This document shows, in pieces, positions 11,265-36,395 of a stretch of DNA of 64,000 nt. The position numbers were made by a program, and so were the translations under genes. The DNA lies in assembly GCA_964344235.1 (NCBI GenBank), contig CAYFMJ010000001.1, positions 283,020 through 347,019 of the forward strand, in the 5' to 3' direction. Below the pieces are notes generated by a model. The model did not search any database, was not told where the DNA came from, and saw only the letters and a list, made by a program, of their open reading frames with translations. This DNA is from an uncultured Methanosarcinales archaeon (GTDB taxonomy: Archaea > Nanobdellota > Nanobdellia > Woesearchaeales > GW2011-AR9). The stretch's first letter is position 1. Every line of letters starts with the position of its first letter.

Positions 11265-11769
11265 GTTTGGCTTTTGGATAGACTTTTTTCATACTTTCCC
11301 ATTGAACGAGGAAGAGATCAGATACAGGGTAGACGAGTTTTCCAGTTTGTGATTTATGGTGGACCCGCACCCATGACTCAATAAAGATTGTTTTGATACC
11401 CATAACTTTAGCAATCCAGAATAATGGGATGGCAGCGGAAGGGCCGGCACTAATAAACACATCTGGTTTTGCTTTTCGTAAGATATTGAAGCCTTGAATA
11501 GTTGTGGGGAACATGTTGAGGACGACTCTAAAGAGGGATTTATCTTTCATTAACCGTGGATTTTTAATGGTGTGAACTTTCCCGGGATGGTGGATTTTCT
11601 TTGCAGATGTTTGGTCATCATGGCCTACGAGGTATTGAAATTGGTGAGTTGGATCGAGATTTTTTGTTAGTTCCAGTATTTGTGAAGTGTGGCCGCCCAT
11701 CCCTAGGTGAATAAGGAGGTTTTTACTGCTGTTTAGCGTGGTACTCATAAAATGGTCTCGGTTCGACAA
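11245..11769 (-). CDS. Alg14-like membrane-anchoring subunit of a bipartite UDP-GlcNAc transferase
   Basis: 174 aa. HLGMGGHTSQILEL ... FISAGPSAAIPLFWIAKVMGIKTIFIESWVRV are conserved Alg14 blocks. Confidence 0.75.
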   Translation of the reverse strand: MSNRDHFMSTTLNSSKNLLIHLGMGGHTSQILELTKNLDPTHQFQYLVGHDDQTSAKKIHHPGKVHTIKNPRLMKDKSLFRVVLNMFPTTIQGFNILRKAKPDVFISAGPSAAIPLFWIAKVMGIKTIFIESWVRVHHKSQTGKLVYPVSDLFLVQWESMKKVYPKAKHAGRLS

Positions 11770-11812
11770 GATTTATAAAGATTTGGAAAAAGATTTTGGA
11801 AATGGTGGTTCT

Positions 11813-13564
11813 ATGTTGAGGGCGGCAAGGAAAACTCCGTTGGAAGAAGGAGAGTGTAGGACGATTAGCGCTACTTCTGGGAACGTTACTGAGAATGGAT
11901 CCTTAACAGAGACACAGACCGTTTTTGGAGCTACAAGTGAACTTGAGGATGTTACGAAAGAAACCCCTCCCCTGGAAACACAAAGAATAAAAGAGCATAA
12001 ATTTAATTTTCCTAAAGGAAAGACAATTGATTTTTTAAAGGATAAGTATCACCTTATTCTGGTAGCAGTTTTAGTTTTGGTTCTGCTCACACGCTTGAAA
12101 TATATTGGTCAAGAAAGTCTATGGAATGATGCAGCTGTTCACTTGTGGTACGTTATAAAAGTTACTAAAGAACCACTGTTTATACTTAGTCATGAATATC
12201 TGCTTGGAGATTATGCAATCCCACAAACAATTATGACTCTTTTTTACTTTGTTGTTAAAGATGCTCTCACTGCGGGGAAGATTGTTGCAGTTTTATATTC
12301 TTTAGTGGGAGTTGTCTTAATTTACCTTTTAGGCTCAGAACTTAAAAGTAAATTCGTTGGGGTCATGGCGGCTATCCTTTTAGCTTTTAATCATATCTTT
12401 TGGTTTTACAGCGTAAGGCCTTTGGGAGATTCACCGCTAATGGTTAGTACTATTTTTATCTTCTATTGCATGGTTCGGTTAGAAAAAGAAAAAACAATGA
12501 TCTGGGGTTTTCTCACGGGGACCGCCTTCGTTCTCGCACTTTTCCATAAGGTCCAATCCTCTATTTTTATCCTTGGTCTTGTTCTTTACTATATTCTTTT
12601 TAAGCGTAAAGAAATGATTAGAAACAAGCCAACGCTTGTTTCTTGGTTGATACCCGTAGGGACAATTGTGGTGGGGCACCTTGTCGCTCAGATCTTTTAC
12701 GGCCGAGATTTGCTTGGAAGATTATTCGGCTTAATGATTTATTTAAGAGGAATGCCTTTTGGATTTGAGGCTGCTGGTATGCTGGAATGGGTCTTTTCTT
12801 GGTATTTAATCCCGTTTGTTTTCTTGGGGGCTTTGTTCGTTGTTTTTTATAAATATAAGAGATTTTATCCGCTACTTGTTTTAGGGCTTTATTACTGGTT
12901 TTACTTTGAGGTTAATGTTGATAATACGCAAGACAGATATGTTTTACCTCTCCTTCCTATAGCAATATTGTTAGCAGTATTCGCGATAGAAGAGATCGCA
13001 TCATACCTCTCGATGGTCTTCCCGAAGAAAGTGAAATCTATCCTAAAGCATGTGATTGTTATTGCTGTTGTTTTGCTCTTAGCTTTGAATTATTATCAAG
13101 TTGGTGATCCTTTGATTTATAATAAATCGTTTAGTTACACTGGCCATGCAGAAGCAGGTCAGTGGATGAAAGAGAATATTCCTGAGGAGACCCCGATTTT
13201 TGCTGGTTCGTATCGTTTTGTTCGTTTGTTTACTGAGCGTGAGTTTGGTGGGCCGGCGGAAGAATCTTTTGGAGGATCAATTTGGAACCTACGGGCAGAA
13301 AAAGTATATGCATCAAATCGGACTGCCTTTGAGGAGGATCTTTTGCGTCTTTCTCAAGAGAGCGATGTCTATTTGGAAATTGACCACATTGAATACACTC
13401 AACCAAGTTGGTATTATCCATTGACTGAAGATAGCGTTAGCTACTTCGCTTCTCTTGGTTTTAACTTAGTGCATGTTGTCAATGGAAAAGTGCTGACGAA
13501 CGAGGGGGTTATGGAAACACCGATGATTTTTATCTTTAAAAAAGATAAAGTAGAGTTAGAATGA
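11813..13564 (+). CDS. GT-C fold membrane glycosyltransferase (ArnT/PMT-like, GT39/GT83-type)
   Basis: The ORF is open from 11738, but that would overlap the divergent Alg14 gene; the Met at 11813 is preceded by GGTGG. About 11 TM helices are followed by a ~200-aa soluble C-terminal domain. The stop overlaps the start of the CE4 gene. Confidence 0.6.
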   Translation: MLRAARKTPLEEGECRTISATSGNVTENGSLTETQTVFGATSELEDVTKETPPLETQRIKEHKFNFPKGKTIDFLKDKYHLILVAVLVLVLLTRLKYIGQESLWNDAAVHLWYVIKVTKEPLFILSHEYLLGDYAIPQTIMTLFYFVVKDALTAGKIVAVLYSLVGVVLIYLLGSELKSKFVGVMAAILLAFNHIFWFYSVRPLGDSPLMVSTIFIFYCMVRLEKEKTMIWGFLTGTAFVLALFHKVQSSIFILGLVLYYILFKRKEMIRNKPTLVSWLIPVGTIVVGHLVAQIFYGRDLLGRLFGLMIYLRGMPFGFEAAGMLEWVFSWYLIPFVFLGALFVVFYKYKRFYPLLVLGLYYWFYFEVNVDNTQDRYVLPLLPIAILLAVFAIEEIASYLSMVFPKKVKSILKHVIVIAVVLLLALNYYQVGDPLIYNKSFSYTGHAEAGQWMKENIPEETPIFAGSYRFVRLFTEREFGGPAEESFGGSIWNLRAEKVYASNRTAFEEDLLRLSQESDVYLEIDHIEYTQPSWYYPLTEDSVSYFASLGFNLVHVVNGKVLTNEGVMETPMIFIFKKDKVELE

Positions 13565-14496
13565 ATCCCAGAAAGTATGCGACAATTCAAGTAGATTTAG
13601 ATGGCTTATGGACAAATTTAGCGTATTATGGTTATGACCACCCTGTGGAAGATGACCCTGTATTTGCCAGTTCAGTACCTCGTTTTATTGAATTGTTCAA
13701 AGAATTTGATGTTAAAGCAACATTTTTCTTGATAGGCAGGGATGGAGAGGTGCCTTGGAAAGCAGAATTGGTAAAAAAATTGGTCGAGGCAGGGCATGAA
13801 GTTGCTAACCATACTTACAATCACCCTTTTGGTTTACGAAAGTTGCCTCAACAAGAGCAAGTTACAGAGATTGAACGAGGAGAAGAAGTAATCAAAAAGA
13901 TTACTGGGAAAAAACCTCGTGGATTTAAAGCTCCAGGGTATGACATGGACGCAGGAGTTTTGCGGTTATTAGCAGAGAAGGGGTATAGGTACGATTCTTC
14001 AATGATTCCAACGTTTGTATACCCGATGATTATGAAGATGATGCAACTCATTTCGGGTGGGGCAAAACGGACGCACGGGCCAAAGTGGAGTTGGGCGTTT
14101 GCTCCGAATACTGTCTATCGGCCGTCAGGTCATAAAGAGTCAAGACGAGGAAAGATGCCCCTGGTAGAGTTGCCGTGCACAGTTGTCCCGGGGTTGCGGT
14201 TACCGTACCATGCAACGTTTGCATTGCGGTTAGGTATGCCTTACTTTTCACCAGCATATGGGCTTACAAAGATGACTCGCGGGACGTTGAATTATGAATT
14301 TCACGCTGTTGATTTAGCAGATGATATTACTGATGATAGATTGACACACGTCAAGGGAATACCTCTTAGTAAAAGGATTGAACGTTGTCGAGCGATCGTC
14401 AAAAAGATGGTAACTCACTATGATGTTGTTGTGTCTGAGGATTTAGTGCAGGAGGTTCAGCAAGGAAATGGTTTGCTCTCTACTCGCAAAAGATGA
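13561..14496 (+). CDS. polysaccharide deacetylase (CE4/NodB homology; ArnD-like)
   Basis: 311 aa. FFLIGRDGEV...GHEVANHTYNHP is a NodB-type motif. Confidence 0.75.
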   Translation: MNPRKYATIQVDLDGLWTNLAYYGYDHPVEDDPVFASSVPRFIELFKEFDVKATFFLIGRDGEVPWKAELVKKLVEAGHEVANHTYNHPFGLRKLPQQEQVTEIERGEEVIKKITGKKPRGFKAPGYDMDAGVLRLLAEKGYRYDSSMIPTFVYPMIMKMMQLISGGAKRTHGPKWSWAFAPNTVYRPSGHKESRRGKMPLVELPCTVVPGLRLPYHATFALRLGMPYFSPAYGLTKMTRGTLNYEFHAVDLADDITDDRLTHVKGIPLSKRIERCRAIVKKMVTHYDVVVSEDLVQEVQQGNGLLSTRKR

Positions 14497-15523
14497 TGAG
14501 GAACAGTACGACCGGTATGTTAGTAATGTTTCCAACGCTGGTTTTGAATATACTTTGCGTTGGCGCGATATTCTTCAACGTCATTTTGGTTTTCGCTCGC
14601 GATGTATCATCGCTAAGGACGAAGAAGGTAAGATTGTAGGGGTTCTGCCATTATTCCAAGCTCGAGGCATATTTGGTAAGAAGCTCGTTTCTTCTCCATA
14701 CGCGATTTATACGGGCATGTTGGCAGATAATGGAGTGGCGAGAGAAGAGATGATGCATTTTGCAAAACAGTTGTCGATTCAGGAACGTGTAAAATTTTGT
14801 GAGGTTCGTGAACAGTTTCAAGATGATTCCTATATTAAAAGAGGGTTTAGGGAAAACAGTACTGTGTTCAATTTCTCGCTTGCCTTATCTTCTGATGTCG
14901 ATGCCGTCTGGAAGAAATTGCCTAAAGGGAGCGTGCGTTGGGGGGTCAAGAAAGCCCAAAAGAGTGGCTTGCAGTGGCGTTGTGGTATTAGTGAGCGGGA
15001 GCTGCAAGGTTTTTATGCTTTGTTTCTTCAGACACGCAAACTGCGGGGTGTTCCGGGATATCCTTATGCCTATTTCAAAGAAATTCTCTCGACATTTGGG
15101 GAGAATGCGAGAATTTACGTTACTTCATACGAGAATAAACCTGTTGCTACAATCTTCTTGATATATCACAAGAATGAAGTGCGATATGCTTTTGCAGGAG
15201 CAGTTCACGATAAAACAATCATGCAATTGCAACCGTACCATCTTATAATGTGGGAAGCAATTAAAGATGCGTGTAACAGAGGGTATACAACGTTTAACTT
15301 TGGTGGTGCTACACTGCAAACAAATGATGGCGGGTTGTATAATTTTAAGAAGAGATGGGCAGATACGGTTGGGAAAGCGTATTCGTATTATTTCCTTCAT
15401 ACAATGAAAGAAGTTCCCTCAAGCGACACTGCATTTTTTGCTTTGGCCACGAAACTATGGAGGAAGCTGCCTCTGTCGGTTGTTGATACGTTAAGTCCTT
15501 TTGTGATACGGCAATTTGTTTAA
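14468..15523 (+). CDS. FemAB-like / Acetyltransf_6 (GNAT-fold) family protein, paralogue 1
   Basis: 351 aa. Conserved with 15553..16602 and 60917..61942 in the blocks LPLFQ, KLPKGSVRWGVKKAQKSGL, TRKLRGVPGYPYAYF, RYAFAGA, TFNFGGA and FKKRWA. Length and spacing are typical of FemAB/BioF2-like tandem GNAT proteins. Confidence 0.55.
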   Translation: MVCSLLAKDDEEQYDRYVSNVSNAGFEYTLRWRDILQRHFGFRSRCIIAKDEEGKIVGVLPLFQARGIFGKKLVSSPYAIYTGMLADNGVAREEMMHFAKQLSIQERVKFCEVREQFQDDSYIKRGFRENSTVFNFSLALSSDVDAVWKKLPKGSVRWGVKKAQKSGLQWRCGISERELQGFYALFLQTRKLRGVPGYPYAYFKEILSTFGENARIYVTSYENKPVATIFLIYHKNEVRYAFAGAVHDKTIMQLQPYHLIMWEAIKDACNRGYTTFNFGGATLQTNDGGLYNFKKRWADTVGKAYSYYFLHTMKEVPSSDTAFFALATKLWRKLPLSVVDTLSPFVIRQFV

Positions 15524-15552
15524 GAGGAATATTTGGCGGATGATAAAGTCTA

Positions 15553-16602
15553 ATGAAATATACAATAACAATGTTAAGTGAGGAGGATCACGAGCTGTAT
15601 GCGCAGTTTGTTAGTAGCTGCCCTGATGCCCTTTATGAACATTCTTTAGCTGTGAAAGATTTGGTTCAAAGATATTTTAAGTTTGAACCGAGATATATTG
15701 TGGCGAAGAATTCAGTTGGACAAATTGTTGGGGCTTTGCCGTTGTTTAAAGCGAAGAGTTTTGTGGAAGGAACACGCCTCGTTTCTATCCCATTTTTTCC
15801 ATATGGCGGCGTGATTGGGGAGAGTGATGAATGTAAACGTTTGCTGTTAGAGGAAGCCAAGAAGTTGTCAAGTACAAGTAAGTTCTTGGAAATGCGTCAA
15901 CATGGTGAACTCTCGGCGGAAGTTGCTCGAGGTTTTGTAAGACAAGCCCCGATTATTAATTTTTATCTTGACTTGAAAGAGTCCGAGGAGGAGATGTTAC
16001 AATCGTTACATAAAAGTGTGCGATATGATATTCGAAAAGCACAGAAAAATAATTTGCAATTTTCTATGGGGGATACAACCAAGTTGCTCAATGATTTTTA
16101 TGATGTGTATCTGAACACGCGGAAGAGAAGAGGTGTACCGGCGTGGCCAATGGGGCTCTTTAAAGAGGCATTGAAAACATGTGATACAAAAGTTGCGGTG
16201 ACATACCATGAAGGAAAACCAATTGCTGGTTGCTTTTTATTTTTTGATAAAAAGACAATTGAATATGCTTTTGCGGGGACTGACTATCGGCACTCTGCGC
16301 TTTGTCCATATTATCTCTTACTGTGGGAGATTATTTGTTATGGAATCAAGCAAGGTTACACTGTTTTAGAGTTGGGTGGAACGACTAAAGTTATGAATGA
16401 GGGGAATATGTATTCTTTCAAGAAACGGTGGAGTACGAAAACTGAAGAGATCCCTTACTACTTTTATGCACGTGAGGAGAAAAATATTCCTGTGTTACAG
16501 AATTCATTTAAAGTGTATACTCTCTATGGTAAAGTTTGGAGTTTACTGCCGAAGTGGTTGATAAAAAAAATAAGTCCGCCAATTATACGGCAATTTAGTT
16601 GA
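15553..16602 (+). CDS. FemAB-like / Acetyltransf_6 family protein, paralogue 2
   Basis: 349 aa. Tandem duplicate of the upstream gene. Shared blocks: LPLFKA, HKSVRYDIRKAQKNNL, TRKRRGVPAWPMGLF, EYAFAGT, LELGGTT and FKKRWS. Confidence 0.55.
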   Translation: MKYTITMLSEEDHELYAQFVSSCPDALYEHSLAVKDLVQRYFKFEPRYIVAKNSVGQIVGALPLFKAKSFVEGTRLVSIPFFPYGGVIGESDECKRLLLEEAKKLSSTSKFLEMRQHGELSAEVARGFVRQAPIINFYLDLKESEEEMLQSLHKSVRYDIRKAQKNNLQFSMGDTTKLLNDFYDVYLNTRKRRGVPAWPMGLFKEALKTCDTKVAVTYHEGKPIAGCFLFFDKKTIEYAFAGTDYRHSALCPYYLLLWEIICYGIKQGYTVLELGGTTKVMNEGNMYSFKKRWSTKTEEIPYYFYAREEKNIPVLQNSFKVYTLYGKVWSLLPKWLIKKISPPIIRQFS

Positions 16603-16625
16603 TGATGTGGGGAGTGAAGGTATAA

Positions 16626-17630
16626 ATGGTTTCCGTCAAACAAAAATTACAACAAACGTTATGTTCGTATCTTGGTGTTCGTCATGCAGTGCTATTTAGT
16701 TCTTGCAGGAATGCGTTGCATACATTATTAGTTTCATTACAGTTGGGGGGGGGAGAGGTTATCGTGCAGGATTTTATTTGTGATAGCTTAAATCAAGCGA
16801 TTGAGAACGCAGACGGCACAGTTGTCGGTGTTCCGGTGGACGAAAAAACGTTTAACCTTTCTGCAGAAACGGTTGAACAATATATTACGCCAAAAACGAA
16901 GGCAGTTCTCTTCGTTCATACGTACGGGAATCCAACGGGTATTGCTGAGGTTGCAACACTTTGTCAAGATAAGGGTATTGTTTTGGTTGAGGATATTGCC
17001 CATGCTTTGGGCGCTGTTTGTCAGGGGAAAAAAGCAGGGACGTTTGGACAATATGCAGTGTATAGTTTTACAAAACAATTAGTTAGTGGTGGTGGTGGAG
17101 CAGTACTTACGAATGAAGATACGACAGCACTAGTTAAAGAACGTGATCGACATTCAACGAGTGCGCCCATTCTGGGTTACGTGAAACGCGTGATGGCTTC
17201 TCTCTATGAGACAAGAGCGTTTTTTCTTTCAAAGATTCTGATTGATGTCGCTCGAAAGAAAGCGGATTTGAAAATGACGAATGCTCTTGATAGACATTAT
17301 AGTTGTTCTTCGATTGAAGCATGGATGATTCTGCGGCAATTGAATGGCTTGGAGAGGTTGGTGGAGAAGAGACAGCGAAATTATCGTTATTGGTCAACAC
17401 TTGTGAAGACACAAGCGGTTATGAATGGTTGTGAATCTAGTTGCAATTATTTAACAATTATTTTTTCCAGCCGTAAAAATCGAGATAAGGCTGTGGCTCA
17501 AAGTCGTTTTTTACTTCCCCCCTGGCCTGGTTCAAATGTTTCTGAAAAGATTGCTTTTGTGCCTAATAATCCTGCTTTTACACAGAAAAAGTTACGAATA
17601 ATCGCTGGAGCGAGTACAAAAGATTTATAA
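16626..17630 (+). CDS. DegT/DnrJ/EryC1/StrS-family PLP enzyme (short aminotransferase-like)
   Basis: 334 aa. VLVEDIAHALGAV...GQYAVYSFTKQLVSGGGGAV contains the conserved PLP-lysine context. It is shorter than canonical DegT enzymes. Confidence 0.65.
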   Translation: MVSVKQKLQQTLCSYLGVRHAVLFSSCRNALHTLLVSLQLGGGEVIVQDFICDSLNQAIENADGTVVGVPVDEKTFNLSAETVEQYITPKTKAVLFVHTYGNPTGIAEVATLCQDKGIVLVEDIAHALGAVCQGKKAGTFGQYAVYSFTKQLVSGGGGAVLTNEDTTALVKERDRHSTSAPILGYVKRVMASLYETRAFFLSKILIDVARKKADLKMTNALDRHYSCSSIEAWMILRQLNGLERLVEKRQRNYRYWSTLVKTQAVMNGCESSCNYLTIIFSSRKNRDKAVAQSRFLLPPWPGSNVSEKIAFVPNNPAFTQKKLRIIAGASTKDL

Positions 17631-17638
17631 GGAACTCT

Positions 17639-18010
17639 TTGCGGATGAGAATTGAGATGAAAGATAATACAAAAGCGGTGCTTCTGGCTTTAGTTGTAAC
17701 AGTTATTGTCTCTGTGTCTCAGATTCTCTTGAAATTTGGTAGTGAACAGTTTGAATTTTCATTGAATCAAATTACAAATTATCCTCTTATTGTTGGAGGG
17801 GTGTTGTATGTTTTAGGAGCTTTTGTGTTGATTAAGGCGTTTCGTCTCGGTGAACTTTCTGTTGTGTATCCTGTTATGGCATCAAGTTATATTTTAGTGA
17901 CACTGTTATCTGTGCGTTATCTTGGTGAGATTATTACAACACAGAAGTGGGTTGGATTAGCTTTAATTACAATCGGAGTTGTATTTATTGGTAGGGGGGG
18001 TTCACAATGA
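17639..18010 (+). CDS. small DMT/SMR-like 4-TM transporter subunit (ArnE/ArnF-like)
   Basis: 123 aa. QILLKFGS ... ELSVVYPVMASSYILVTLLS ... WVGLALITIGVV are EamA/ArnE-type blocks. Its stop overlaps the start of the next small TM gene. Confidence 0.6.
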   Translation: MRMRIEMKDNTKAVLLALVVTVIVSVSQILLKFGSEQFEFSLNQITNYPLIVGGVLYVLGAFVLIKAFRLGELSVVYPVMASSYILVTLLSVRYLGEIITTQKWVGLALITIGVVFIGRGGSQ

Positions 18011-18339
18011 GTTTAGTTACCGGGCTGTTCTTTTTGCTGATTTCTTCAATAATTGGCGCGTTTAGTACGCTTCTTTTTAAGACTGGGTCTCGGTTTAAAA
18101 TTAGCATTCGAAATAATCACCTCATTGGGGCAGTTGTCCTTGCGGCTTTTTCGTTTGTGTTTTACATTCTTGCGTTACAACAAGCGCCGTTGACGTTCAT
18201 TTATCTGACTGCTTCTATTAGTTATATTTGGGCGATAATCCTGGCTAAAAGTATTTTGAAAGAAAAGATTAACAGAAATAAAATCATTGGAGTATCCCTT
18301 ATTATCATCGGTATTGTTGTTCTTAATTTCCCATTCTAA
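18007..18339 (+). CDS. small DMT/SMR-like 4-TM transporter subunit (second subunit of pair)
   Basis: 110 aa, four hydrophobic helices. Paired, translationally coupled with the preceding gene like ArnE/ArnF heterodimers. Confidence 0.55.
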   Translation: MSLVTGLFFLLISSIIGAFSTLLFKTGSRFKISIRNNHLIGAVVLAAFSFVFYILALQQAPLTFIYLTASISYIWAIILAKSILKEKINRNKIIGVSLIIIGIVVLNFPF

Positions 18340-18388
18340 TGGTGTCCTGTTAAGGAAAATTTATAAATCACGTCTCAGAGAGGCAGAT

Positions 18389-19117
18389 ATGAAATTATCG
18401 ATTGTTGTTCCGTGCTATAATGAGGAGGAAGGTGTTGAAAACCTCTCACAGAAGCTTGAACCGATTCTCCAGGAATTGCAAAAGGAGTGGCAGTTAGAAC
18501 TTATTTTTGTTGATGATGGAAGCAAAGATAGAACGTACGACTTATTGCAGCAGTATTTTGGTGAGAAAGAGTATGTCAAAATTGTGAAGCATGAAGTCAA
18601 TAAGAATATTGGTGCTGCGATGCGAACGGGGTTTTCACATTCAACGGGAGATGTTATTGTGACTATGGATAGTGATTGCACGTACGATCCGCAAGAAATC
18701 TTTGCGATGCTGGGCCTTATGAAGGATGGTGCTTCAATTGTTACGGCTTCACCATATCACCCTCAAGGGGGTGTGAGGAATGTTCCTCTTTACAGAATTT
18801 TTCTGAGTAAAGCTATCACTCAAATTTATAGAACACTTACTGGCTCGAAGATTTACACGTTTACTGCTCTCTTTCGAGCCCATACTCGTGATGTTGTAGA
18901 TACGGTTGCTTTCCAAGCTGATGATTTCCTCGCTACTGCAGAAATGTTAATCAAAGCGTCAATAGCAGGTCATAAAATTCAAGAGCATCCCAGTGTTCTC
19001 AATGTAAGAGAATATGGTGTTTCTAAAATGAGATTGTTACAAGTGATTGGGAATCATGCAAAGTTTGTGGGAAAAGTTGCATCGCTGCGCTTCCGTGGTA
19101 GTTTTAGAAAAAAGTAG
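18389..19117 (+). CDS. GT2 polyprenyl-phosphate sugar synthase (Dpm1/ArnC/GtrB-like)
   Basis: The ORF is open from 18287, but the Met at 18389 (MKLSIVVPCYNEEEG) is the canonical GT2 N-terminus. Also present: IFVDDGSKDRT ... TMDSDCTY. Confidence 0.8.
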   Translation: MKLSIVVPCYNEEEGVENLSQKLEPILQELQKEWQLELIFVDDGSKDRTYDLLQQYFGEKEYVKIVKHEVNKNIGAAMRTGFSHSTGDVIVTMDSDCTYDPQEIFAMLGLMKDGASIVTASPYHPQGGVRNVPLYRIFLSKAITQIYRTLTGSKIYTFTALFRAHTRDVVDTVAFQADDFLATAEMLIKASIAGHKIQEHPSVLNVREYGVSKMRLLQVIGNHAKFVGKVASLRFRGSFRKK

Positions 19118-19130
19118 AAGGTTTGGAGTT

Positions 19131-20231
19131 ATGAAAATAATTACGATTCTAGGAACAAGGCCAGAAATCACGAAACTTTCTCCCGTCTTACCGCTGCTTG
19201 ATGAAGCATTTGATCATAAAGTCATCCATACTGGCCAGCATTATGACTATAAAATGGATGAGATTTTTTTTGAGGAATTGCAATTGCGGAAACCAGATTA
19301 TATGTTGCATGTGGGGAGTGGGAGTCATGCTGAAATGACTGCAAAGATGTTAATTGAGATTGAAAAAATTCTTGTTGCAGAGAAGCCAGATTGGGTGATT
19401 GTGTTTGCCGATCCTAACACTCCGCTTGCAGGGGCGTTAGCAGCAGTGAAGTTACACATTCCTGTGATTCACATGGAAGCAGGGTGTCGTTCTTTTAACA
19501 AAAAGATGCCGGAAGAGATTAATCGAATTGTGTGTGACCATTGTGCAGACTTGTTGCTAGCTCCAGATGAAGTGGCTAGGGGCAACTTGTTACGAGAGGG
19601 TTTGCCTGAAGAGAAGATTGAGGTTGTTGGCAGTACAGCACTTGAAGCGGCGTTGCGGAATGTGGTAATTGCGCGTGAGAAGTCGAAGATTTTGGAAGAG
19701 CTGGGGCTGGTTGATGGCAAATATGCCCTTCTAACAATTCATCGAGCAGAGAATACTGATAATGCAGAAGTGTTGTGTGGTTTAGTGGGTGCAATGAATA
19801 AAATTGCTGAAAAAATTCCGATTGTATTTCCAATGCATCCCCGTTTTGTCAAAGCGTTGCAGCGTGAAGGGTTGCAGTTATCAGAGAAGATTCACGCGAT
19901 TGAGGCAGTTGGTTATGTAGACATGTTGATGTTGTTGGATAATGCATTATTTGTGATGACTGGGTCTGGCGGGTTACAGGAAGAAGCAGCAGCGTTAGAT
20001 ACGCCTTGTCTTGTGATTCGGAATGAAACAGAGTGGACGTATTTAACTGATGCAGGGAAAAATTTGTTGGTTAGTAATGATGGTGGTAAAATAGTGAATG
20101 TGGTCACTGACCTGCTTGACCACCCTGAAAAGCTTACTAATATGAAGAATGTTCAATTAACTTTAAATACGGATGTTTCCCGAAATGTAGTTGATGCAAT
20201 CAAAAGAAATTGTTCAACGAAAGACGCTTAA
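19131..20231 (+). CDS. wecB: UDP-N-acetylglucosamine 2-epimerase (non-hydrolysing, WecB/WbpI-like)
   Basis: The Met at 19131 (MKIITILGTRPEITKLSPV) is 14 nt after the GT2 stop. Conserved blocks: HTGQHYDYKMDEIFF ... HMEAGCRSFN ... PEEINR ... LMTGSGGLQEEA. The ORF track starts earlier, at 19047. Confidence 0.85.
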   Translation: MKIITILGTRPEITKLSPVLPLLDEAFDHKVIHTGQHYDYKMDEIFFEELQLRKPDYMLHVGSGSHAEMTAKMLIEIEKILVAEKPDWVIVFADPNTPLAGALAAVKLHIPVIHMEAGCRSFNKKMPEEINRIVCDHCADLLLAPDEVARGNLLREGLPEEKIEVVGSTALEAALRNVVIAREKSKILEELGLVDGKYALLTIHRAENTDNAEVLCGLVGAMNKIAEKIPIVFPMHPRFVKALQREGLQLSEKIHAIEAVGYVDMLMLLDNALFVMTGSGGLQEEAAALDTPCLVIRNETEWTYLTDAGKNLLVSNDGGKIVNVVTDLLDHPEKLTNMKNVQLTLNTDVSRNVVDAIKRNCSTKDA

Positions 20232-21186
20232 AGGTAAGAACGTTTTAGTGACTGGTGGTGCTGGCTTTGTTGGTGGGCATTTAGTTGATAGGCTCATTGA
20301 GGAAGAACCAGCTTCTATTGTTGTTGCGTCTAATTTCTTTTTAGGAAGCATTTCAAATTTAGATGATGCGCTGAAACGGTTTCCCGTTAAAATTGTACGG
20401 TGTGATGTTGCTGATTTTGAAGAGATTAAAGACGCAATCGTTGATAATGATATTGAAGTTGTGTTTAATTTAGCAGTCATACCTCTGCCAACCTCGCTTG
20501 TAAAACCGGAATGGACTATTCGAAAAAATATTGAGATGACAATTAATATTTGCCAGTTGTTGCGGGAAAAGAAGTTTAAGACGTTAATTCAATACTCCTC
20601 TTCCGAAGCATTTGGTTCAGCACAATACGTGCCGATGGACGGGAAACATCCACTTGACCCTGAAACGCCGTATGCAGCTTCCAAAGCAGCAACAGATCAT
20701 ATTGCGTTATCCTATCATCACACGTTTGGCTGTGACGTTGCTGTGGTGAGGCCGTTTAACCAATATGGGCCGCGGCAGAATGTTAAGAAGTATGCAGGAA
20801 TAATTCCATTAATGGTTGGCAAGATGGTGCGAGGCGAGGATGTGACGATTTTTGGTGATGGGGAACAAACGAGAGATTTTATGTACGTGGGAGATACAGC
20901 AGATTTAACCATTGAAGTTTACAAAAACCCTGCAAGTCGAGGAAGAGTTATTAATGCAGGTAGTGGCCGGGAAGTTTCAATCAAAACTGTTTTAACAAAG
21001 ATGGCAGATATTTTAGAGTATACAAAACCGTTTGTGCATCTCGATGCACGACCCGGTGATGTGAGGAGACACTGTTCTGATATTTCTGAAGTTAGGGAAG
21101 TGCTAGGATGGGAGCCGAAAACTTCGTTTGAGGAAGGGCTTCGTAAAACGGTTGAATGGTACCGTGATCATCCTGAGGTTTTTTGA
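20191..21186 (+). CDS. NAD-dependent epimerase/dehydratase (extended SDR; UXS/ArnA-C-terminal-like)
   Basis: 331 aa. VLVTGGAGFVGGHLVDRL is the Rossmann GxxGxxG motif. YAASKAATDHI is the YxxxK motif. Confidence 0.8.
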   Translation: MMQSKEIVQRKTLKGKNVLVTGGAGFVGGHLVDRLIEEEPASIVVASNFFLGSISNLDDALKRFPVKIVRCDVADFEEIKDAIVDNDIEVVFNLAVIPLPTSLVKPEWTIRKNIEMTINICQLLREKKFKTLIQYSSSEAFGSAQYVPMDGKHPLDPETPYAASKAATDHIALSYHHTFGCDVAVVRPFNQYGPRQNVKKYAGIIPLMVGKMVRGEDVTIFGDGEQTRDFMYVGDTADLTIEVYKNPASRGRVINAGSGREVSIKTVLTKMADILEYTKPFVHLDARPGDVRRHCSDISEVREVLGWEPKTSFEEGLRKTVEWYRDHPEVF

Positions 21187-21731
21187 TGATTCATTCGACA
21201 GCAGATGTTTCTCCAGAAGCAGTGTTGGGGAAGAATGTAAAAGTGTGGCACCAATCGCAGGTACGGGAGAAAGTGATTATCGGTGATAATTGTATTTTAG
21301 CAAAGAATGTGTATGTTGATAAAGATGTAGTTATTGGCAAGAATTGTAAAATTCAAAATAATAGCTCTCTGTACCATGGGGCGTTGTTAGGAGATGGCGT
21401 ATTTATTGGCCCACATTGTGTTTTGACAAATGACAGATATCCTCGCGCTGTTACAGTTGATGGGGATTTGAAACAGGATACTGATTGGGAAGAAGGAAAA
21501 GTTGTGATTAAAGGGGGGGCGTCCTTGGGTGCGGGGGTTATTGTGTTGCCGGGAGTTACAATTGGAAAGTATGCACTCGTGGGAGCAGGGAGTGTTGTTG
21601 CGAAAGACGTTCCTGATTTTGGGTTAGTGTATGGTAACAGAGCGGAGTTACGGGGATTTGTGTGTAAGTGTGGGAAGAAGCTAGCTGTTGGTAAGATTGG
21701 CGGGGAGATGTGTGAGGAATGTTTAGAATAG
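21183..21731 (+). CDS. left-handed beta-helix (hexapeptide) sugar N-acetyltransferase with C-terminal CxxC...CxxC tail
   Basis: 182 aa. Repeated [LIV]-G-x4 hexapeptides (IGDNCILAKNVYV, IGKNCKIQNNSSL, IGPHCVLTNDRYP). The C-terminus FVCKCGKKLAVGKIGGEMCEEC resembles a zinc ribbon. Confidence 0.7.
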   Translation: MMIHSTADVSPEAVLGKNVKVWHQSQVREKVIIGDNCILAKNVYVDKDVVIGKNCKIQNNSSLYHGALLGDGVFIGPHCVLTNDRYPRAVTVDGDLKQDTDWEEGKVVIKGGASLGAGVIVLPGVTIGKYALVGAGSVVAKDVPDFGLVYGNRAELRGFVCKCGKKLAVGKIGGEMCEECLE

Positions 21732-21736
21732 TTGTG

Positions 21737-22669
21737 TTATATTCTCTCTAATTCTGGGATCATTTCTGTTGGATCAACCCCATAGCTTTCTGCCATGCAG
21801 ATGAATGTTGGAGAAACGGTGGCAGGGAATCTTGTGTGGTTATCAAGTAGATGTGCTATGCCTGCTGCATCTGCTGTTACCGAAGCACCTTGGGAATATT
21901 TCCCCGAGTGTATCCCCTGGCGCATTTGTTCTGCAGTAACGTCAATTTCTGCATAAGTCGTACGCGTAATATCTAAGTCGTGAATTGAACGAATAATGGC
22001 AGTAACTCTAACATCTTGTACTCTCGCACTTAAACTTGCCACTCCTGGAAACTCTAGGGAAAGCATTCTTTTAACATGGTCTTCGAATGTAGAGCTATCG
22101 GCTGTCACTTCATCAACGAAGAGAGAAGGGTCGCCGCTGATTCGTCCACCACTTGGGAAAGACCAACTGTTTGTGTAGCAATCAACGTTGTTGGTTCTCA
22201 CTCCGTATAAGAACTGCCTATCACTTGTTCTGATAAGTGTGCTCACTGCAAAAGCGGTTGCTAGCTCATTGCCATTTGGAACTATTGCTCGTAGCGCTCT
22301 ATCCGAGACTTTTCGATATCTGTAAGGGCGATGTTGCGCAGTCCATGTATCATCAATCCCATTCACGGGAGTCGTTCCATGGTGTTGTCTGTAGTCTGTC
22401 TTTCCAAGCCGTATTGCTGTTGTGTCGCTTTCTGGTTGGATTCCATTGAAATATACTAATGGGCCATTGAACAACGTTTTCCTTGCAACTTCTGCTTCTG
22501 CCTTTTTCTCTTTCCACACTCGCTCTATCCTCTTTTTTACTGCTGGTGTTGGGGTAAAATCTTCTCCTCGTTCAAATACTAGGTTTTCACCTAAGGTAAG
22601 GTCACTTGCGTCAAGTTCGGTGATCCAAGAACGTGAGCGATCTCGGGAGTCAAGATGGTATAGGGGCAT
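21737..22669 (-). CDS. hypothetical protein with no catalytic motif I can recognise
   Basis: 310 aa, single long ORF on the opposite strand to the flanking operons. It appears somewhat GC-richer than its neighbours by eye. It may be an internally duplicated alpha/beta fold. Confidence 0.45.
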   Translation of the reverse strand: MPLYHLDSRDRSRSWITELDASDLTLGENLVFERGEDFTPTPAVKKRIERVWKEKKAEAEVARKTLFNGPLVYFNGIQPESDTTAIRLGKTDYRQHHGTTPVNGIDDTWTAQHRPYRYRKVSDRALRAIVPNGNELATAFAVSTLIRTSDRQFLYGVRTNNVDCYTNSWSFPSGGRISGDPSLFVDEVTADSSTFEDHVKRMLSLEFPGVASLSARVQDVRVTAIIRSIHDLDITRTTYAEIDVTAEQMRQGIHSGKYSQGASVTADAAGIAHLLDNHTRFPATVSPTFICMAESYGVDPTEMIPELERI

Positions 22670-22742
22670 TTTTGCTATTTTTTTGTAAATAGAATAAAAA
22701 TCTTATGTATTAATTCCTCTTTCATTAAAAGTTGCATAAGTT

Positions 22743-22750
22743 ATTTAAAC
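22743..22750 (+). promoter_or_regulatory. TATA-like box (ATTTAAAC) for the 22772 gene
   Basis: Its centre lies ~25 nt upstream of the ATG at 22772. Confidence 0.35.
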
Positions 22751-22771
22751 TGATTTGTTCTCGGAGTTGCT

Positions 22772-23170
22772 ATGTCAACGTGGCGTGAGGATTTCGATGC
22801 GTGGAAGGCGTTTGCGGACGCTTATGGTTTACATTCTTTAGATGATCTCTCTGATAGATTTGGCATACCGATTCCAGAAAGTCCAAGTTTCTCTTTTGAA
22901 ACCATTCCTGTGCCACTTTCTCCTGAAAATCAAGATACTCTCGCCGAAGAAGTTCAAAAGCTTTGGGATGTCGAATTTGCTCCTAATGGCTATGAGAATT
23001 CACCTCGTTATGGCGTTTTTGGCATTGATGATAACTTGTGGCTAATTACTGATGGGCTTAGATTTGAGGCATGGGCAACCGACTATGCAACATCTCGCTT
23101 TGCAAATAGAGATGACAAAGAAGTACTTTGGGCTACATTGAATGAGAATCAAAGAAGTTATTTAGAATGA
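22772..23170 (+). CDS. hypothetical acidic protein
   Basis: 132 aa ORF with its own TATA box. It is Asp/Glu/Trp-rich and I recognise no family. Confidence 0.45.
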   Translation: MSTWREDFDAWKAFADAYGLHSLDDLSDRFGIPIPESPSFSFETIPVPLSPENQDTLAEEVQKLWDVEFAPNGYENSPRYGVFGIDDNLWLITDGLRFEAWATDYATSRFANRDDKEVLWATLNENQRSYLE

Positions 23171-23176
23171 TTAAAG

Positions 23177-29053: not shown

Positions 29054-29147
29054 GTGCTAGTTGAGGATATTCTCTTTTTAATTCTTATGAAAAATATGTT
29101 GTTTATTTCTACACAACCTTCTATGGAGTTGCTATCTTCTTAGAAAA

Positions 29148-36367: not shown

Positions 36368-36395
36368 GCAAGTTGAGTATTCCTTGGGGTGTTCT

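What the first reader, a model, noticed from the sequence alone, without database searches (positions are those of the whole stretch)
14468..17630. Three FemAB-like (Acetyltransf_6) paralogues, two in repeated DegT-like + FemAB-like pairs
14468..15523 and 15553..16602 are tandem paralogues and 60917..61942 is a third. All share conserved blocks: LPLF, KxxRxxxxKAxK, TRKxRGVP, YAFAG-type core and FKKRW/YKRKW. Paralogues 2 and 3 each neighbour an unusually short DegT-family enzyme, with opposite gene order: 16626..17630 follows paralogue 2, and 59881..60927 precedes paralogue 3. FemAB-type enzymes transfer aminoacyl groups from aminoacyl-tRNA to an amine. A DegT enzyme would create the amino group on a sugar. 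Together they suggest an aminoacylated amino-sugar (e.g. Gly/Ala/Thr-amide) in the glycan, made by a tRNA-dependent route not described for archaeal glycosylation.
Basis: inference. Interest (0 to 1): 0.7.

Follow-up and report, generated by a model that had tools for sequence, protein, structure and literature searches.

The report
Amino-acid-adding sugar enzymes in DPANN archaeon
A tiny-celled (DPANN) archaeon carries three copies of a Fem/VimA-type enzyme that most likely hangs an amino acid onto an amino sugar of its surface glycans; the same chemistry is known from gum-disease bacteria but has not been described in archaea.

Summary
Three FemAB/Acetyltransf_6 paralogues lie at the stated coordinates, and two sit beside short DegT-family genes. 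Both DegT-likes keep the catalytic lysine.

The predicted Fem1 structure matches aminoacyl-tRNA-dependent transferases (FemX, FemA, Sba18/Sbb17, MprF) far better than acyl-CoA GNATs. The FemX Lys305 equivalent is invariant in 49/49 relatives.

A cytoplasmic CE4 polysaccharide deacetylase adjoins Fem1 (13/13 related genomes) and lies near Fem3 (20/22 loci). An AsnB-like amidotransferase follows the second deacetylase. WbpB/E/D/I-like genes lie a few kb away.

This gene set corresponds to the bacterial Wbp/Vim pathway (Veith 2020). There VimE deacetylates a 2,3-diacetamido sugar and VimA, a TIGR03019 match, adds Ser or Gly.

The short DegTs are still real partners: Fem2–DegT in 9/9 loci and DegT–Fem3 in 20/21. 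They form a DPANN-only clade that is sometimes fused to an ArnE/F-like flippase subunit.

The cassette also holds ArnC-like GT2, ArnE/F-like and ArnT-like genes, which suggests a lipid-phosphate route.

The amino-acid donor and the acceptor are inferred, not shown. I rate it a new variant of a known kind, of moderate interest.

The parts
13561..14496 (+). Deac1: cytoplasmic CE4 polysaccharide deacetylase (VimE/ArnD-like). Its end overlaps the start of Fem1.
   Evidence: PF01522, E 5e-25. Best NCBIfam hit is TIGR03006, the XrtA-system deacetylase (72 bits); ArnD is a weak hit. No signal peptide or TM segment. Lies immediately upstream of Fem1-type genes in 13/13 genomes.
14468..15523 (+). Fem1: Fem/VimA-type double-GNAT, putative aminoacyl transferase.
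   Evidence: PF02388 and PF13480. TIGR03019, E 1e-56. AF2 model pLDDT 95.8. Foldseek top hits are FemX, FemA and Sba18. K294 aligns with FemX K305 and is invariant.
15553..16602 (+). Fem2: tandem paralogue of Fem1 (38% identical).
   Evidence: Always followed by DegTs1 (9/9), even where it is separated from Fem1 by 8 kb (L013).
16626..17630 (+). DegTs1: short DegT-family sugar aminotransferase from a DPANN-only clade.
   Evidence: PF01041, E 6e-47. Lys150 and Asp123 are invariant. AF2 pLDDT 90.5; TM 0.75-0.79 to perosamine synthase, WbpE and ArnB. Tight clade, with some members fused to EamA.
17639..18339 (+). Pair of small EamA/SMR-like membrane proteins (17639..18010 and 18007..18339): ArnE/ArnF-like putative lipid-phosphate-sugar flippase.
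   Evidence: PF00892. NCBIfam hits to ArnE and ArnF, below cut-off. Conserved after DegTs1 in 9/9 loci. Found between DegTs2 and Fem3 in 8-9 loci.
18287..19117 (+). GT2: polyprenyl-phosphate sugar synthase-like (ArnC/PpgS/dolichyl-phosphate hexose transferase-like).
   Evidence: PF00535. Best NCBIfam hit is ArnC (91 bits); also PpgS and the haloarchaeal Dol-P hexose transferase. Conserved in all 13 related loci.
11738..13564 (+). PMT_2 GT-C glycosyltransferase (ArnT/PMT-like) directly upstream of Deac1. Putative final transferase on the outer face.
   Evidence: PF13231 and PF02366. 9 hydrophobic segments. Conserved upstream of Deac1 in most relatives.
19047..21731 (+). WecB 2-epimerase (19047..20231), SDR 4,6-dehydratase/epimerase (20191..21186) and hexapeptide N-acetyltransferase (21183..21731): WbpI-like and WbpD-like precursor enzymes.
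   Evidence: TIGR00236 wecB scores 334 bits, above its cut-off.
23688..25732 (+). Full-length DegT aminotransferase (23688..24755; WbpE-like) and GFO/IDH oxidoreductase (24752..25732; archaeal UDP-GlcNAc 3-dehydrogenase-like, WbpB-like).
   Evidence: PF01041, E 3e-128. NF040723, 346 bits. The pair is conserved downstream in relatives.
59881..60927 (+). DegTs2: second divergent short DegT-family protein. Its end overlaps the start of Fem3.
   Evidence: PF01041, E 5e-17. The lysine aligns with PglE K184. Upstream of Fem3-type genes in 20/21 informative loci.
60917..61942 (+). Fem3: third Fem/VimA-type paralogue.
   Evidence: PF13480, E 2e-23. TIGR03019, E 4e-59. 123 close relatives, named Woesearchaeota or Nanoarchaeota wherever an organism name is given.
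61946..62683 (-). Deac2: second cytoplasmic CE4 deacetylase, convergent with Fem3.
   Evidence: PF01522. Best NCBIfam hit is TIGR03006 (80 bits). Present in 20/22 informative Fem3 loci.
62680..64000 (-). AsnB-like amidotransferase (WbpS/TIGR03108-like). The ORF runs off the window end.
   Evidence: PF00733, E 3e-91. TIGR03108, 239 bits. No stop codon up to 63999. Relatives are 636 aa with a GATase domain.

Best explanation
**What it is.** The three Fem-like proteins are the archaeal counterparts of VimA, the TIGR03019-type transferase. They are cytoplasmic double-GNAT enzymes that put an amino acid onto a free amino group of an amino sugar destined for surface glycans.

**Proposed steps**
1. 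WbpB/E/D/I-like enzymes in the same island (GFO oxidoreductase, full-length DegT, hexapeptide acetyltransferase, WecB) make a 2,3-diacetamido sugar nucleotide.
2. An ArnC/PpgS-like GT2 probably loads the sugar onto a polyprenyl (dolichyl) phosphate.
3. The leaderless CE4 deacetylase (Deac1 or Deac2) removes one N-acetyl group.
4. The adjacent Fem enzyme acylates the exposed amine with an amino acid, most probably taken from aminoacyl-tRNA. The invariant Lys294 would play the role of FemX Lys305.
5. Fem2 works as a unit with the short DegT. It either aminoacylates a second amine that this aminotransferase installs, or extends the first residue.
6. The ArnE/F-like pair flips the product, and a PMT_2 GT-C enzyme transfers it outside.

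The Fem3 cassette does the same on a second, lipid-diphosphate-type glycan. It holds DegTs2, Fem3, Deac2, an AsnB-like amidotransferase, GT2 and GT4s, and in relatives an AglH/WecA-like initiating transferase.

**Shown versus inferred.** Shown: family, fold, active-site conservation, cytoplasmic location, and conserved gene partnerships. Inferred: the acceptor, the order of steps, the amino acid, and tRNA as donor.
For: **Family and fold**
- Pfam and NCBIfam assignments.
- AF2 model pLDDT 95.8.
- The Foldseek top 23 PDB hits are all aa-tRNA-dependent transferases: FemX_Wv (E 1e-19, TM 0.70-0.74), FemA, FemX_Sa, Sba18/Sbb17 bound to the amino sugar streptothrisamine, and MprF/PGS domains. Acyl-CoA tandem GNATs rank lower, most at TM 0.34-0.55 (VipF about 0.4).

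**Active site**
- The query motif FKKRW aligns with FemX F304-K305.
- The lysine is invariant in 34/34 and 49/49 sequences across all three clades, with an aromatic residue before it in 49/49.
- Lys305 is described as catalytic in PMC12945691.

**Partners**
- Deac1-Fem1 in 13/13 loci and Fem2-DegTs1 in 9/9 loci.
- DegTs2-Fem3 in 20/21 and Deac2 in 20/22 loci, with AsnB beside Deac2 in all but one of the loci where its side is sequenced.
- Both deacetylases hit TIGR03006 best, and AsnB hits TIGR03108. These are the families that partner TIGR03019.

**Precedent**
- In the Wbp/Vim pathway, a vimA swap changes Ser to Gly on the 2-N position of a 3-N-acetyl uronic sugar, VimE is a CE4 deacetylase, and VimA matches TIGR03019 (PMC7468200).
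- A Fem-like enzyme that glycylates an amino sugar from Gly-tRNA is known: Orf11.

**Route**
- WbpB/E/D/I-like genes lie in the cluster.
- The GT2 hits ArnC best, the small EamA pair hits ArnE/F, and there is a PMT_2 GT-C.
- DegTs1 is fused to EamA in some genomes.
- Fem, Deac and DegTs proteins have no signal peptide or TM segment.
- AglB/STT3 lies 8 kb upstream.
Against: - No biochemical data exist for any TIGR03019-type enzyme as to donor. The VimA paper does not mention tRNA, and older work called VimA an acetyl-CoA transferase.
- TIGR03019 scores are below the equivalog cut-off.
- I could not align VimA itself with these proteins. The link runs through the shared profile.
- No UDP-GlcNAc 6-dehydrogenase (WbpA) was found in the window, so the uronic acid that an AsnB/WbpS-type amidotransferase would need is unaccounted for.
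- All ArnC, ArnE/F and ArnD matches are far below family cut-offs, so the lipid-phosphate route is a resemblance.
- The role of the two short DegTs is unresolved.
- No dedicated tRNA gene lies in the window.
Confidence: 0.55

Rival explanations
1. First reader's version. The short DegT enzymes, not the deacetylases, create the amino groups that the Fem enzymes acylate. The pattern would be ArnB-then-N-acylation: transaminate a keto sugar, then aminoacylate the new amine. This may hold for Fem2 and Fem3 while Fem1 uses the deacetylase route, so it overlaps with the main explanation.
For: - Fem2-DegTs1 are paired in 9/9 loci and stay together when moved 8 kb from Deac1-Fem1 in L013.
- DegTs2-Fem3 are paired in 20/21 loci. 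L040 and L041 keep DegTs2-Fem3 without any deacetylase or AsnB.
- Both DegTs keep the catalytic Lys and Asp.
- DegTs1 has an intact sugar-aminotransferase fold.
Against: - Fem1 never has a short DegT of its own, yet it always has Deac1 (13/13).
- No dedicated oxidoreductase or dehydratase to make the keto substrate is consistently present in either cassette.
- DegTs1 lacks the N-terminal segment and part of the C-terminal domain of canonical NDP-sugar aminotransferases, so its substrate may not be an NDP-keto-sugar.
- In the studied Wbp/Vim system the acylated amine comes from deacetylation.
Confidence: 0.3
2. The Fem-like proteins are ordinary acyl-CoA-dependent N-acyltransferases (GNATs) that re-acylate the deacetylated sugar with a short acyl group rather than with an amino acid.
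For: - Many database names for close relatives are 'GNAT family N-acetyltransferase'.
- VimA was once described as a putative acetyl-CoA transferase.
- The donor has never been measured for this subfamily.
Against: - Structural neighbours are aa-tRNA-dependent enzymes. CoA-dependent tandem GNATs rank clearly below them.
- The FemX catalytic Lys and its neighbouring aromatic residue are invariant.
- Swapping vimA between species changes which amino acid is on the sugar.
- Removing an acetyl only to add another small acyl via a 350-aa double GNAT, when hexapeptide acetyltransferases are already encoded nearby, is less economical.
Confidence: 0.1
3. They are peptidoglycan or pseudomurein interpeptide-bridge enzymes, as the automatic names say ('peptidoglycan bridge formation glycyltransferase FemA/FemB', 'lipid II:glycine glycyltransferase').
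For: - Source names.
- Membership of PF02388.
- A GT28-type Alg13/Alg14 pair and a MOP flippase lie nearby.
Against: - No Mur ligase, MraY, PBP or pseudomurein gene is present in 64 kb.
- By the alignment, the FemX residue R211 is Tyr198 here. By my recollection, R211 binds the UDP-MurNAc-pentapeptide.
- The FemX equivalog model scores 40-53 bits against a cut-off of 500.
- The context is AglB, Wbp-like and Arn-like glycan genes.
- The hosts are DPANN archaea.
Confidence: 0.03
4. The acceptor of Fem2 (with DegTs1) is not a sugar amine but an aminophosphonate decoration. This would follow dehydrophos biosynthesis, where an aminotransferase makes the aminophosphonate and Fem-like DhpH/DhpK aminoacylate it from aa-tRNA.
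For: - Phosphonate genes are in the island: a PEP mutase-cytidylyltransferase fusion at 42237..43538 and Fe-ADH at 43636..44775.
- In L004/L013 a phosphonate cluster lies between Fem1 and Fem2-DegTs1.
- The DhpH/DhpK precedent.
Against: - In 8 of 9 genomes Fem2-DegTs1 sit directly between Fem1 and the EamA pair, with no phosphonate gene beside them.
- In the window the phosphonate genes are 25 kb away.
- DegTs1 has the sugar-aminotransferase fold.
Confidence: 0.04

Closest known systems
Wbp/Vim pathway of Porphyromonas gingivalis and Tannerella forsythia (VimE deacetylase, VimA transferase, WbpS amidotransferase; Veith et al. 2020, PMC7468200)
   Same: The gene set matches: WbpB/E/D(/I)-like enzymes for a 2,3-diacetamido sugar, a CE4 deacetylase, a TIGR03019-type Fem-like transferase and an AsnB/TIGR03108-like amidotransferase. 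The product there is a 2-N-seryl or 2-N-glycyl 3-N-acetyl uronic sugar.
   Different: - The host is an archaeon.
- There are three diverged transferases, two of them in tandem, instead of one.
- Each of Fem2 and Fem3 is coupled to a private short DegT clade.
- Arn-like lipid-phosphate genes (GT2, ArnE/F-like pair, GT-C) are embedded in the cassette.
- No T9SS/PorU, exosortase or WbpA was seen in the window.
- Sequence identity to bacterial TIGR03019-type proteins is only about 25-30%.
- VimA itself was not aligned here.
TIGR03019 / TIGR03006 / TIGR03108 trio of bacterial PEP-CTERM/exosortase EPS loci
   Same: Fem1-3, Deac1-2 and AsnB each have the corresponding model as best or joint-best NCBIfam hit, over the full length for Fem1-3. 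The genes are adjacent, as in bacteria.
   Different: All scores are below the equivalog cut-offs. No exosortase or archaeosortase and no PEP-CTERM protein was identified in the window. The function of the bacterial trio is itself untested.
FemX of Weissella viridescens and FemA/FemX of S. aureus (FemABX aminoacyl-tRNA transferases)
   Same: Double-GNAT fold (TM 0.70-0.74), the catalytic Lys with a preceding aromatic residue, and a size like FemX_Wv without the coiled-coil arm.
   Different: About 15% identity. The acceptor-binding residue R211 is not conserved. There is no peptidoglycan pathway, and the acceptor is presumably a monosaccharide amine.
Orf11/Sba18/Sbb17 of streptothricin-type antibiotic biosynthesis (Gly-tRNA-dependent acylation of the amino sugar streptothrisamine)
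   Same: A Fem-like enzyme that aminoacylates a sugar amine from aa-tRNA. It is a clear structural match (E 2e-13, TMt 0.78).
   Different: It belongs to secondary metabolism in Streptomyces, is a smaller protein (about 285 aa), and has no deacetylase or glycan-assembly context.
Arn (PmrHFIJKLM) pathway for L-Ara4N on lipid A, and the mycobacterial PpgS/Rv3779 GalN system
   Same: The logic matches, with recognisable counterparts: DegT aminotransferase (ArnB), GT2 polyprenyl-phosphate sugar synthase (ArnC/PpgS), CE4-type de-N-acylase acting before flipping (ArnD), a small EamA/SMR pair (ArnE/F) and a GT-C transferase (ArnT).
   Different: There is no ArnA. All matches are far below family cut-offs. 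Fem-type enzymes are added, which the Arn pathway lacks. The target is not lipid A.

Membership tests
FemABX family (PF02388/PF13480) aminoacyl-tRNA-dependent transferases | Sequence membership above the curated Pfam thresholds | tested here: met
   All three score above gathering thresholds for PF02388 (39.9-73.8 bits against 24) and PF13480 (59-83 bits against 22).
FemABX family (PF02388/PF13480) aminoacyl-tRNA-dependent transferases | Two tandem GNAT domains forming the Fem fold | tested here: met
   Fem1 AF2 model, pLDDT 95.8 and pTM 0.91. Foldseek gives FemX_Wv TM 0.70-0.74 and E 1e-19, followed by FemA, FemX_Sa, Sba18 and MprF domains. Only Fem1 was modelled.
FemABX family (PF02388/PF13480) aminoacyl-tRNA-dependent transferases | Catalytic lysine (FemX_Wv K305) preceded by an aromatic residue (F304) | tested here: met
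   Fem1 F293-K294 aligns with FemX F304-K305. The lysine is invariant in 49/49 sequences, with F or Y before it in 49/49. The role of K305 is taken from PMC12945691.
FemABX family (PF02388/PF13480) aminoacyl-tRNA-dependent transferases | Uses aminoacyl-tRNA as the acyl donor | not testable with these tools
   Needs an enzyme assay. No dedicated tRNA gene is in the window.
FemABX family (PF02388/PF13480) aminoacyl-tRNA-dependent transferases | Peptidoglycan precursor as acceptor (UDP-MurNAc-pentapeptide or lipid II) | tested here: not met
   FemX R211 corresponds to Tyr198. The NF047883 FemX equivalog scores 40-53 bits against 500. No Mur or PBP genes are in the window.
VimA / TIGR03019 (pepcterm_femAB) module | Match to TIGR03019 at equivalog level | tested here: inconclusive
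   Full-length alignments with E 1e-49 to 1e-59, but 165-200 bits is below the 260-bit cut-off.
VimA / TIGR03019 (pepcterm_femAB) module | Adjacent CE4 deacetylase of the TIGR03006/VimE type | tested here: met
   Deac1 overlaps Fem1 and Deac2 abuts Fem3. TIGR03006 is the best hit for both, though below cut-off. Conserved in 13/13 and 20/22 loci.
VimA / TIGR03019 (pepcterm_femAB) module | AsnB-like amidotransferase (WbpS/TIGR03108) in the locus | tested here: met
   62680..64000, minus strand: PF00733 and TIGR03108 at 239 bits, below cut-off. Conserved next to Deac2. Absent from the Fem1/Fem2 cassette.
VimA / TIGR03019 (pepcterm_femAB) module | Wbp genes for a 2,3-diacetamido (uronic) sugar | tested here: inconclusive
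   WbpB-, WbpE-, WbpD- and WbpI-like genes are present. No WbpA-type 6-dehydrogenase was found in the window.
VimA / TIGR03019 (pepcterm_femAB) module | Associated sortase-type system (exosortase, PorU or archaeosortase) that uses the aminoacyl sugar | tested here: not met
   None among the window ORFs I scanned against Pfam (about 60 of 72 ORFs of at least 100 aa; the rest mostly overlap them). The rest of the genome was not available.
VimA / TIGR03019 (pepcterm_femAB) module | Product is an N-aminoacyl amino sugar | not testable with these tools
   Needs mass spectrometry or NMR of the glycan.
DegT/DnrJ/EryC1/StrS sugar aminotransferases (the two short DegTs) | PF01041 membership, fold-type I two-domain structure, Schiff-base Lys and PLP-binding Asp | tested here: met
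   (K150, D123 and E122 invariant). The DegTs1 model gives TM 0.75-0.79 to perosamine synthase, WbpE and ArnB. DegTs2 was not modelled.
DegT/DnrJ/EryC1/StrS sugar aminotransferases (the two short DegTs) | Canonical N-terminal segment and the GTxAL phosphate-binding motif | tested here: not met
   The DegTs1 clade starts about 35 residues late, reads SCRNAL for GTxAL, and lacks about 25 residues of the C-terminal domain.
Arn-type polyprenyl-phosphate aminosugar pathway | ArnB, ArnC, ArnD, ArnE/F and ArnT counterparts at family level, plus ArnA | tested here: not met
   Counterparts are recognisable but far below cut-offs: ArnC 91 against 529, ArnE 44 against 92, ArnD 26 against 382. No ArnA formyltransferase is present. 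It works like Arn but is not a member.

The most novel reading that the evidence does not exclude
DPANN archaea use aminoacyl-tRNA outside translation to build an aminoacyl, or a short peptide (Fem1 then Fem2, plus Fem3 on a second glycan), on a lipid-linked amino sugar. This would be the first tRNA-dependent glycan modification in Archaea. A new membrane-associated DegT clade would act on a lipid-linked rather than a nucleotide-linked sugar. The free alpha-amine would serve either as a cationic surface charge or as the nucleophile to which a sortase-like enzyme anchors surface proteins, as in the bacterial T9SS linking sugar.
Probability: 0.25. Interest if true: 0.75.

Novelty: new variant of a known kind. 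Interest (0 to 1): 0.55.

Why it matters
**Non-ribosomal use of aminoacyl-tRNA.** If confirmed, this would extend the Fem-type use of aminoacyl-tRNA, so far a bacterial speciality in the literature I read, to the surface glycans of Archaea. It would apply specifically to the host-dependent, genome-reduced DPANN lineages, whose cell surfaces mediate attachment to hosts.

**The donor question.** It offers a compact, conserved and soluble enzyme set (deacetylase plus Fem-like) with which to settle the still-open donor question for the whole VimA/TIGR03019 family. By my search that wider family has thousands of members across bacteria and archaea (8,431 cluster representatives).

**A new DegT clade.** It points to an unstudied DegT clade that may act at the membrane.

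**Annotation.** The current database names for these proteins ('peptidoglycan bridge formation glycyltransferase', 'lipid II:glycine glycyltransferase', 'GNAT N-acetyltransferase') are probably wrong.

Tried and rejected
**Searches that failed or found nothing**
- The locus search with the diverse alignment A2 failed because no stretch was conserved enough. I repeated it with the closer set A3.
- The afdb50 fold library was unavailable, so I could not retrieve VimA or other UniProt-named neighbours by structure.
- A literature search for AglU, the Methanococcus N-glycan threonine-attaching enzyme, found nothing in the held library.
- 'VimA' with aminoacyl-tRNA or tRNA gave only irrelevant hits.
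- 'FemAB' with archaeal N-glycosylation gave none.
- 'FemX' with DPANN gave only a Patescibacteria peptidoglycan mention.
- The DPANN protein-family paper mentions murein-lytic proteins, not Fem.
- There are no tRNA genes and no Rfam families in the window. So there is no locus-specific non-proteinogenic tRNA of the kind S. aureus uses for FemXAB.

**Explanations considered and rejected or downgraded**
- The peptidoglycan or pseudomurein bridge reading is rejected on context and acceptor residues.
- The acyl-CoA GNAT reading is disfavoured on structure and on the vimA-swap precedent.
- The aminophosphonate acceptor idea is kept only as a low-probability rival.
- I suspected a truncated AsnB lacking its glutaminase domain. 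In fact the ORF simply runs off the window end.
- I looked for an archaeosortase or exosortase and for a UDP-sugar 6-dehydrogenase in the window. Neither was found.

Full report
**1. The observation**

- Fem1 (14468..15523), Fem2 (15553..16602) and Fem3 (60917..61942) all exceed the Pfam gathering scores for FemAB (PF02388) and Acetyltransf_6 (PF13480).
- All three align over their whole length with NCBIfam TIGR03019, the 'FemAB family XrtA/PEP-CTERM system-associated protein'. E-values are 1e-49 to 1e-59, but the scores fall below the equivalog cut-off.
- They are old paralogues, 38% and 27% identical to Fem1.
- The listed motifs hold for Fem1 and Fem2. Only some hold for Fem3, which has LPIV, NMRRFGSP and VHILIA in place of LPLF, TRKxRGVP and YAFAG. 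The KxxRxxxxKxxK and [FY]K[KR][KR]W blocks are shared by all three.
- The two DegT-like ORFs (16626..17630 and 59881..60927) pass PF01041 and are only 21% identical to each other.

**2. The organism and the island**

Close homologues of all these proteins that carry an organism name come from Woesearchaeota, Nanoarchaeota or Nanoarchaeia MAGs. An identical protein lies on contigs of 140 and 412 kb. A few records are labelled 'uncultured Methanosarcinales'.

The window is one long glycan-biosynthesis island. It encodes:
- UppP and AglB/STT3;
- flippases, an Alg13/Alg14-type two-part GT, two PMT_2 GT-C enzymes, GT2 and GT4 enzymes, and two B12-radical-SAM enzymes;
- nonulosonic-acid and phosphonate genes.

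**3.

A leaderless CE4 polysaccharide deacetylase overlaps the start of Fem1 (13561..14496). A second one (61946..62683, minus strand) abuts the end of Fem3. It is followed by an AsnB-like amidotransferase that runs off the window end.

The best NCBIfam hit of both deacetylases is TIGR03006. The AsnB-like protein hits TIGR03108 as strongly as generic asparagine synthase. TIGR03006 and TIGR03108 are the families that accompany TIGR03019 in bacterial EPS loci.

**4. Are the partnerships conserved?**

I fetched 13 genome loci with Fem1-type genes and 26 metagenome loci with Fem3-type genes. I then scored their ORFs with the window's own proteins.
- Deac1 sits immediately upstream of Fem1 in 13/13 genomes.
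- Fem2 is present in 9 of the 13 and is followed by DegTs1 in 9/9. In L013 the Fem2-DegTs1 pair lies 8 kb from Deac1-Fem1 but is still a pair.
- The four genomes without Fem2 lack DegTs1.
- DegTs2 precedes Fem3 in 20/21 informative loci. In 8-9 of these a pair of small EamA genes lies between them.
- Deac2 follows Fem3 in 20/22 informative loci, and AsnB sits beside it in all but one of the loci where its side is sequenced. In fuller loci a GT2 comes next, and in two inspected relatives an AglH/WecA-type Glycos_transf_4 follows that.

So there are three conserved modules:
- [Deac1+Fem1]
- [Fem2+DegTs1]
- [DegTs2+Fem3, usually with Deac2+AsnB]

The deacetylase pairings are just as strong.

**5. 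What kind of enzyme the Fem-likes are**

- The AF2 model of Fem1 is confident: pLDDT 95.8, pTM 0.91.
- Its 23 best PDB matches are all aminoacyl-tRNA-dependent transferases: FemX of W. viridescens (E 1e-19, TM 0.70-0.74), FemA, S. aureus FemX, Sba18/Sbb17 crystallised with the amino sugar streptothrisamine, and the MprF/PG-synthase domains.
- Acyl-CoA-dependent tandem GNATs rank below them, most at TM 0.34-0.55 (VipF about 0.4).
- In the sequence alignment with FemX, the shared FKKRW block places Fem1 F293-K294 on FemX F304-K305. Lys305 is the catalytic residue (PMC12945691).
- This lysine is invariant in 49/49 distinct full-length Fem1/2/3-type sequences, and the preceding residue is aromatic in 49/49.
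- The FemX residue R211, which by my recollection binds the peptidoglycan precursor, is Tyr here.
- Like FemX_Wv, the protein has no coiled-coil arm. Absence of that arm does not argue against tRNA use.
- Fem1-3, Deac1-2 and DegTs1-2 have no signal peptide or membrane segment. This fits chemistry on the cytoplasmic side, where aminoacyl-tRNA is available.

**6. The DegT-likes**

- Both keep the Schiff-base lysine and the PLP-binding Asp. They align to K186 of perosamine synthase and K184 of PglE. K150, D123 and E122 are invariant in a 30-sequence alignment.
- The DegTs1 model (pLDDT 90.5) is a two-domain sugar aminotransferase, with TM 0.75-0.79 to perosamine synthase, WbpE, QdtB and ArnB.
- DegTs1 belongs to a tight clade (45-56% identity) whose named members are all Woesearchaeota/Nanoarchaeota and that is separated by a wide score gap from all other DegTs.
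- That clade lacks about 35 N-terminal residues, has SCRNAL for the usual GTxAL, and lacks part of the C-terminal domain.
- In several genomes DegTs1 is fused to the following small EamA membrane protein. This suggests it works at the membrane, possibly on a lipid-linked substrate. That last step is inference.

**7. The closest known system**

A full-text search led to Veith et al. 2020 (PMC7468200). [quoted passage not shown] - WbpS, an AsnB-like TIGR03108 protein, amidates it;
- the CE4 deacetylase VimE is proposed to remove the 2-N-acetyl group;
- VimA, which matches TIGR03019, adds serine or glycine.

Exchanging vimA between the species changes the amino acid. The free amine of that residue is where the T9SS sortase attaches cargo proteins.

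The window holds counterparts of almost every element:
- a WbpB-like oxidoreductase that matches the archaeal UDP-GlcNAc 3-dehydrogenase model (346 bits);
- a full-length WbpE-like DegT;
- a WbpD-like hexapeptide acetyltransferase;
- WecB (WbpI-like);
- AsnB, the two deacetylases and the three Fem-likes.

No WbpA-type dehydrogenase and no sortase-like gene was seen. That paper never mentions tRNA, and I found no later paper that does. The donor is therefore open for the whole subfamily. A tRNA-dependent Fem-like acylation of an amino sugar is established for Orf11.

**8. The second resemblance: an Arn-like lipid-phosphate route**

In the Fem1 cassette the order is PMT_2 (GT-C), Deac1, Fem1, Fem2, DegTs1, EamA, EamA, GT2, WecB, and so on.
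- The GT2's best NCBIfam hit is ArnC. PpgS and the haloarchaeal Dol-P hexose transferase also match.
- The small EamA proteins hit ArnE and ArnF.
- Deac1 weakly hits ArnD.

All these scores are far below family cut-offs and ArnA is absent. This is a 'works like', not a membership.

**9. Proposed mechanism and confidence**

1. A diacetamido sugar is made.
2. It is probably loaded on a polyprenyl phosphate.
3. It is de-N-acetylated by the leaderless CE4 enzyme.
4. It is aminoacylated by the adjacent Fem enzyme.
5. Fem2 together with DegTs1 modifies it a second time.
6. It is flipped, and a GT-C enzyme transfers it outside.

The Fem3 cassette does the analogous job on a second glycan.

I put 0.55 on N-aminoacylation of a sugar amine by these enzymes with aa-tRNA as donor. 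The rivals are:
- a DegT-made amine for Fem2 and Fem3 (0.3, overlapping with the main explanation);
- an acyl-CoA donor (0.1);
- an aminophosphonate acceptor (0.04);
- a peptidoglycan-type role (0.03).

**10. Novelty**

The wider family is large. There are 8,431 cluster representatives at E ≤ 1e-3, but only 231 at E ≤ 1e-30. The module is known from bacteria.

What I did not find described:
- its presence in archaea;
- the tandem Fem pair;
- the private short DegT clades, including the EamA fusions;
- the merger with an Arn-like route next to AglB.

I rate it a new variant of a known kind, with interest 0.55.

Noticed in passing
window 28358..31405 (minus strand): A PglD-like hexapeptide N-acyltransferase (28358..29053), a 117-aa ORF with a weak phosphopantetheine-attachment match (29148..29501), an AMP-binding adenylating enzyme (29407..30939) and a 4'-phosphopantetheinyl transferase (31022..31405). 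Together they look like a carrier-protein-dependent route for putting an unusual acyl group on an amino sugar.
   Followed up: no
L011 3384..4796; proteins P0183, P0187, P0209, P0211: In several relatives the short DegT (DegTs1 type) is fused in one ORF to the following small EamA/ArnE-like membrane protein. A soluble PLP aminotransferase fused to a flippase subunit is unusual.
   Followed up: partly
window 42237..44775; L004 9231..16847: Phosphonate biosynthesis genes lie inside the glycan island: a cytidylyltransferase-PEP mutase fusion and an Fe-alcohol dehydrogenase. In one relative a fuller set (CDP-alcohol phosphatidyltransferase, Fe-ADH, TPP decarboxylase, PEP mutase) is inserted between Deac1-Fem1 and Fem2-DegTs1.
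   Followed up: partly
window 38259..40439 (+): A 726-aa fusion of a full-length DegT aminotransferase with an NAD-dependent epimerase/dehydratase domain.
   Followed up: no
window 7367..9079 (-) and 51189..52898 (+): Two B12-binding radical SAM enzymes in the glycan island. The first is conserved next to the flippase/Alg13/Alg14 genes in relatives, which suggests C-methylation or another radical modification of the glycan or its lipid carrier.
   Followed up: no
window 34076..38161: NeuB-type nonulosonic acid synthase (34076..35122), two APH-like kinases and a CMP-sugar cytidylyltransferase (37469..38161). This indicates a sialic-acid-like sugar pathway in a DPANN archaeon.
   Followed up: no
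window 21737..23638: Three ORFs (310 aa on the minus strand; 132 and 153 aa on the plus strand) lie between the acetyltransferase and the WbpE/WbpB-like pair. They match no Pfam or NCBIfam family.
   Followed up: no
L015, L017, L018, L022 (record titles): Four MAGs that carry the same cassette as the Woesearchaeota/Nanoarchaeia genomes are titled 'uncultured Methanosarcinales archaeon'. The label looks doubtful.
   Followed up: no
L021 4864..6027 and L022 11071..12228 (minus strand): In two genomes that lack Fem2 and DegTs1, a different, full-length (about 385 aa) DegT-family gene lies convergent right after Fem1. Some DegT stays next to a Fem gene even there.
   Followed up: no
window 875..2104 (-) and 52895..53548 (-): An ATP-citrate-lyase-type ATP-grasp/citrate-binding protein, and a ferredoxin fused to a PterinBD-DUF4346 domain, sit at the edges of and inside the glycan island.
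   Followed up: no
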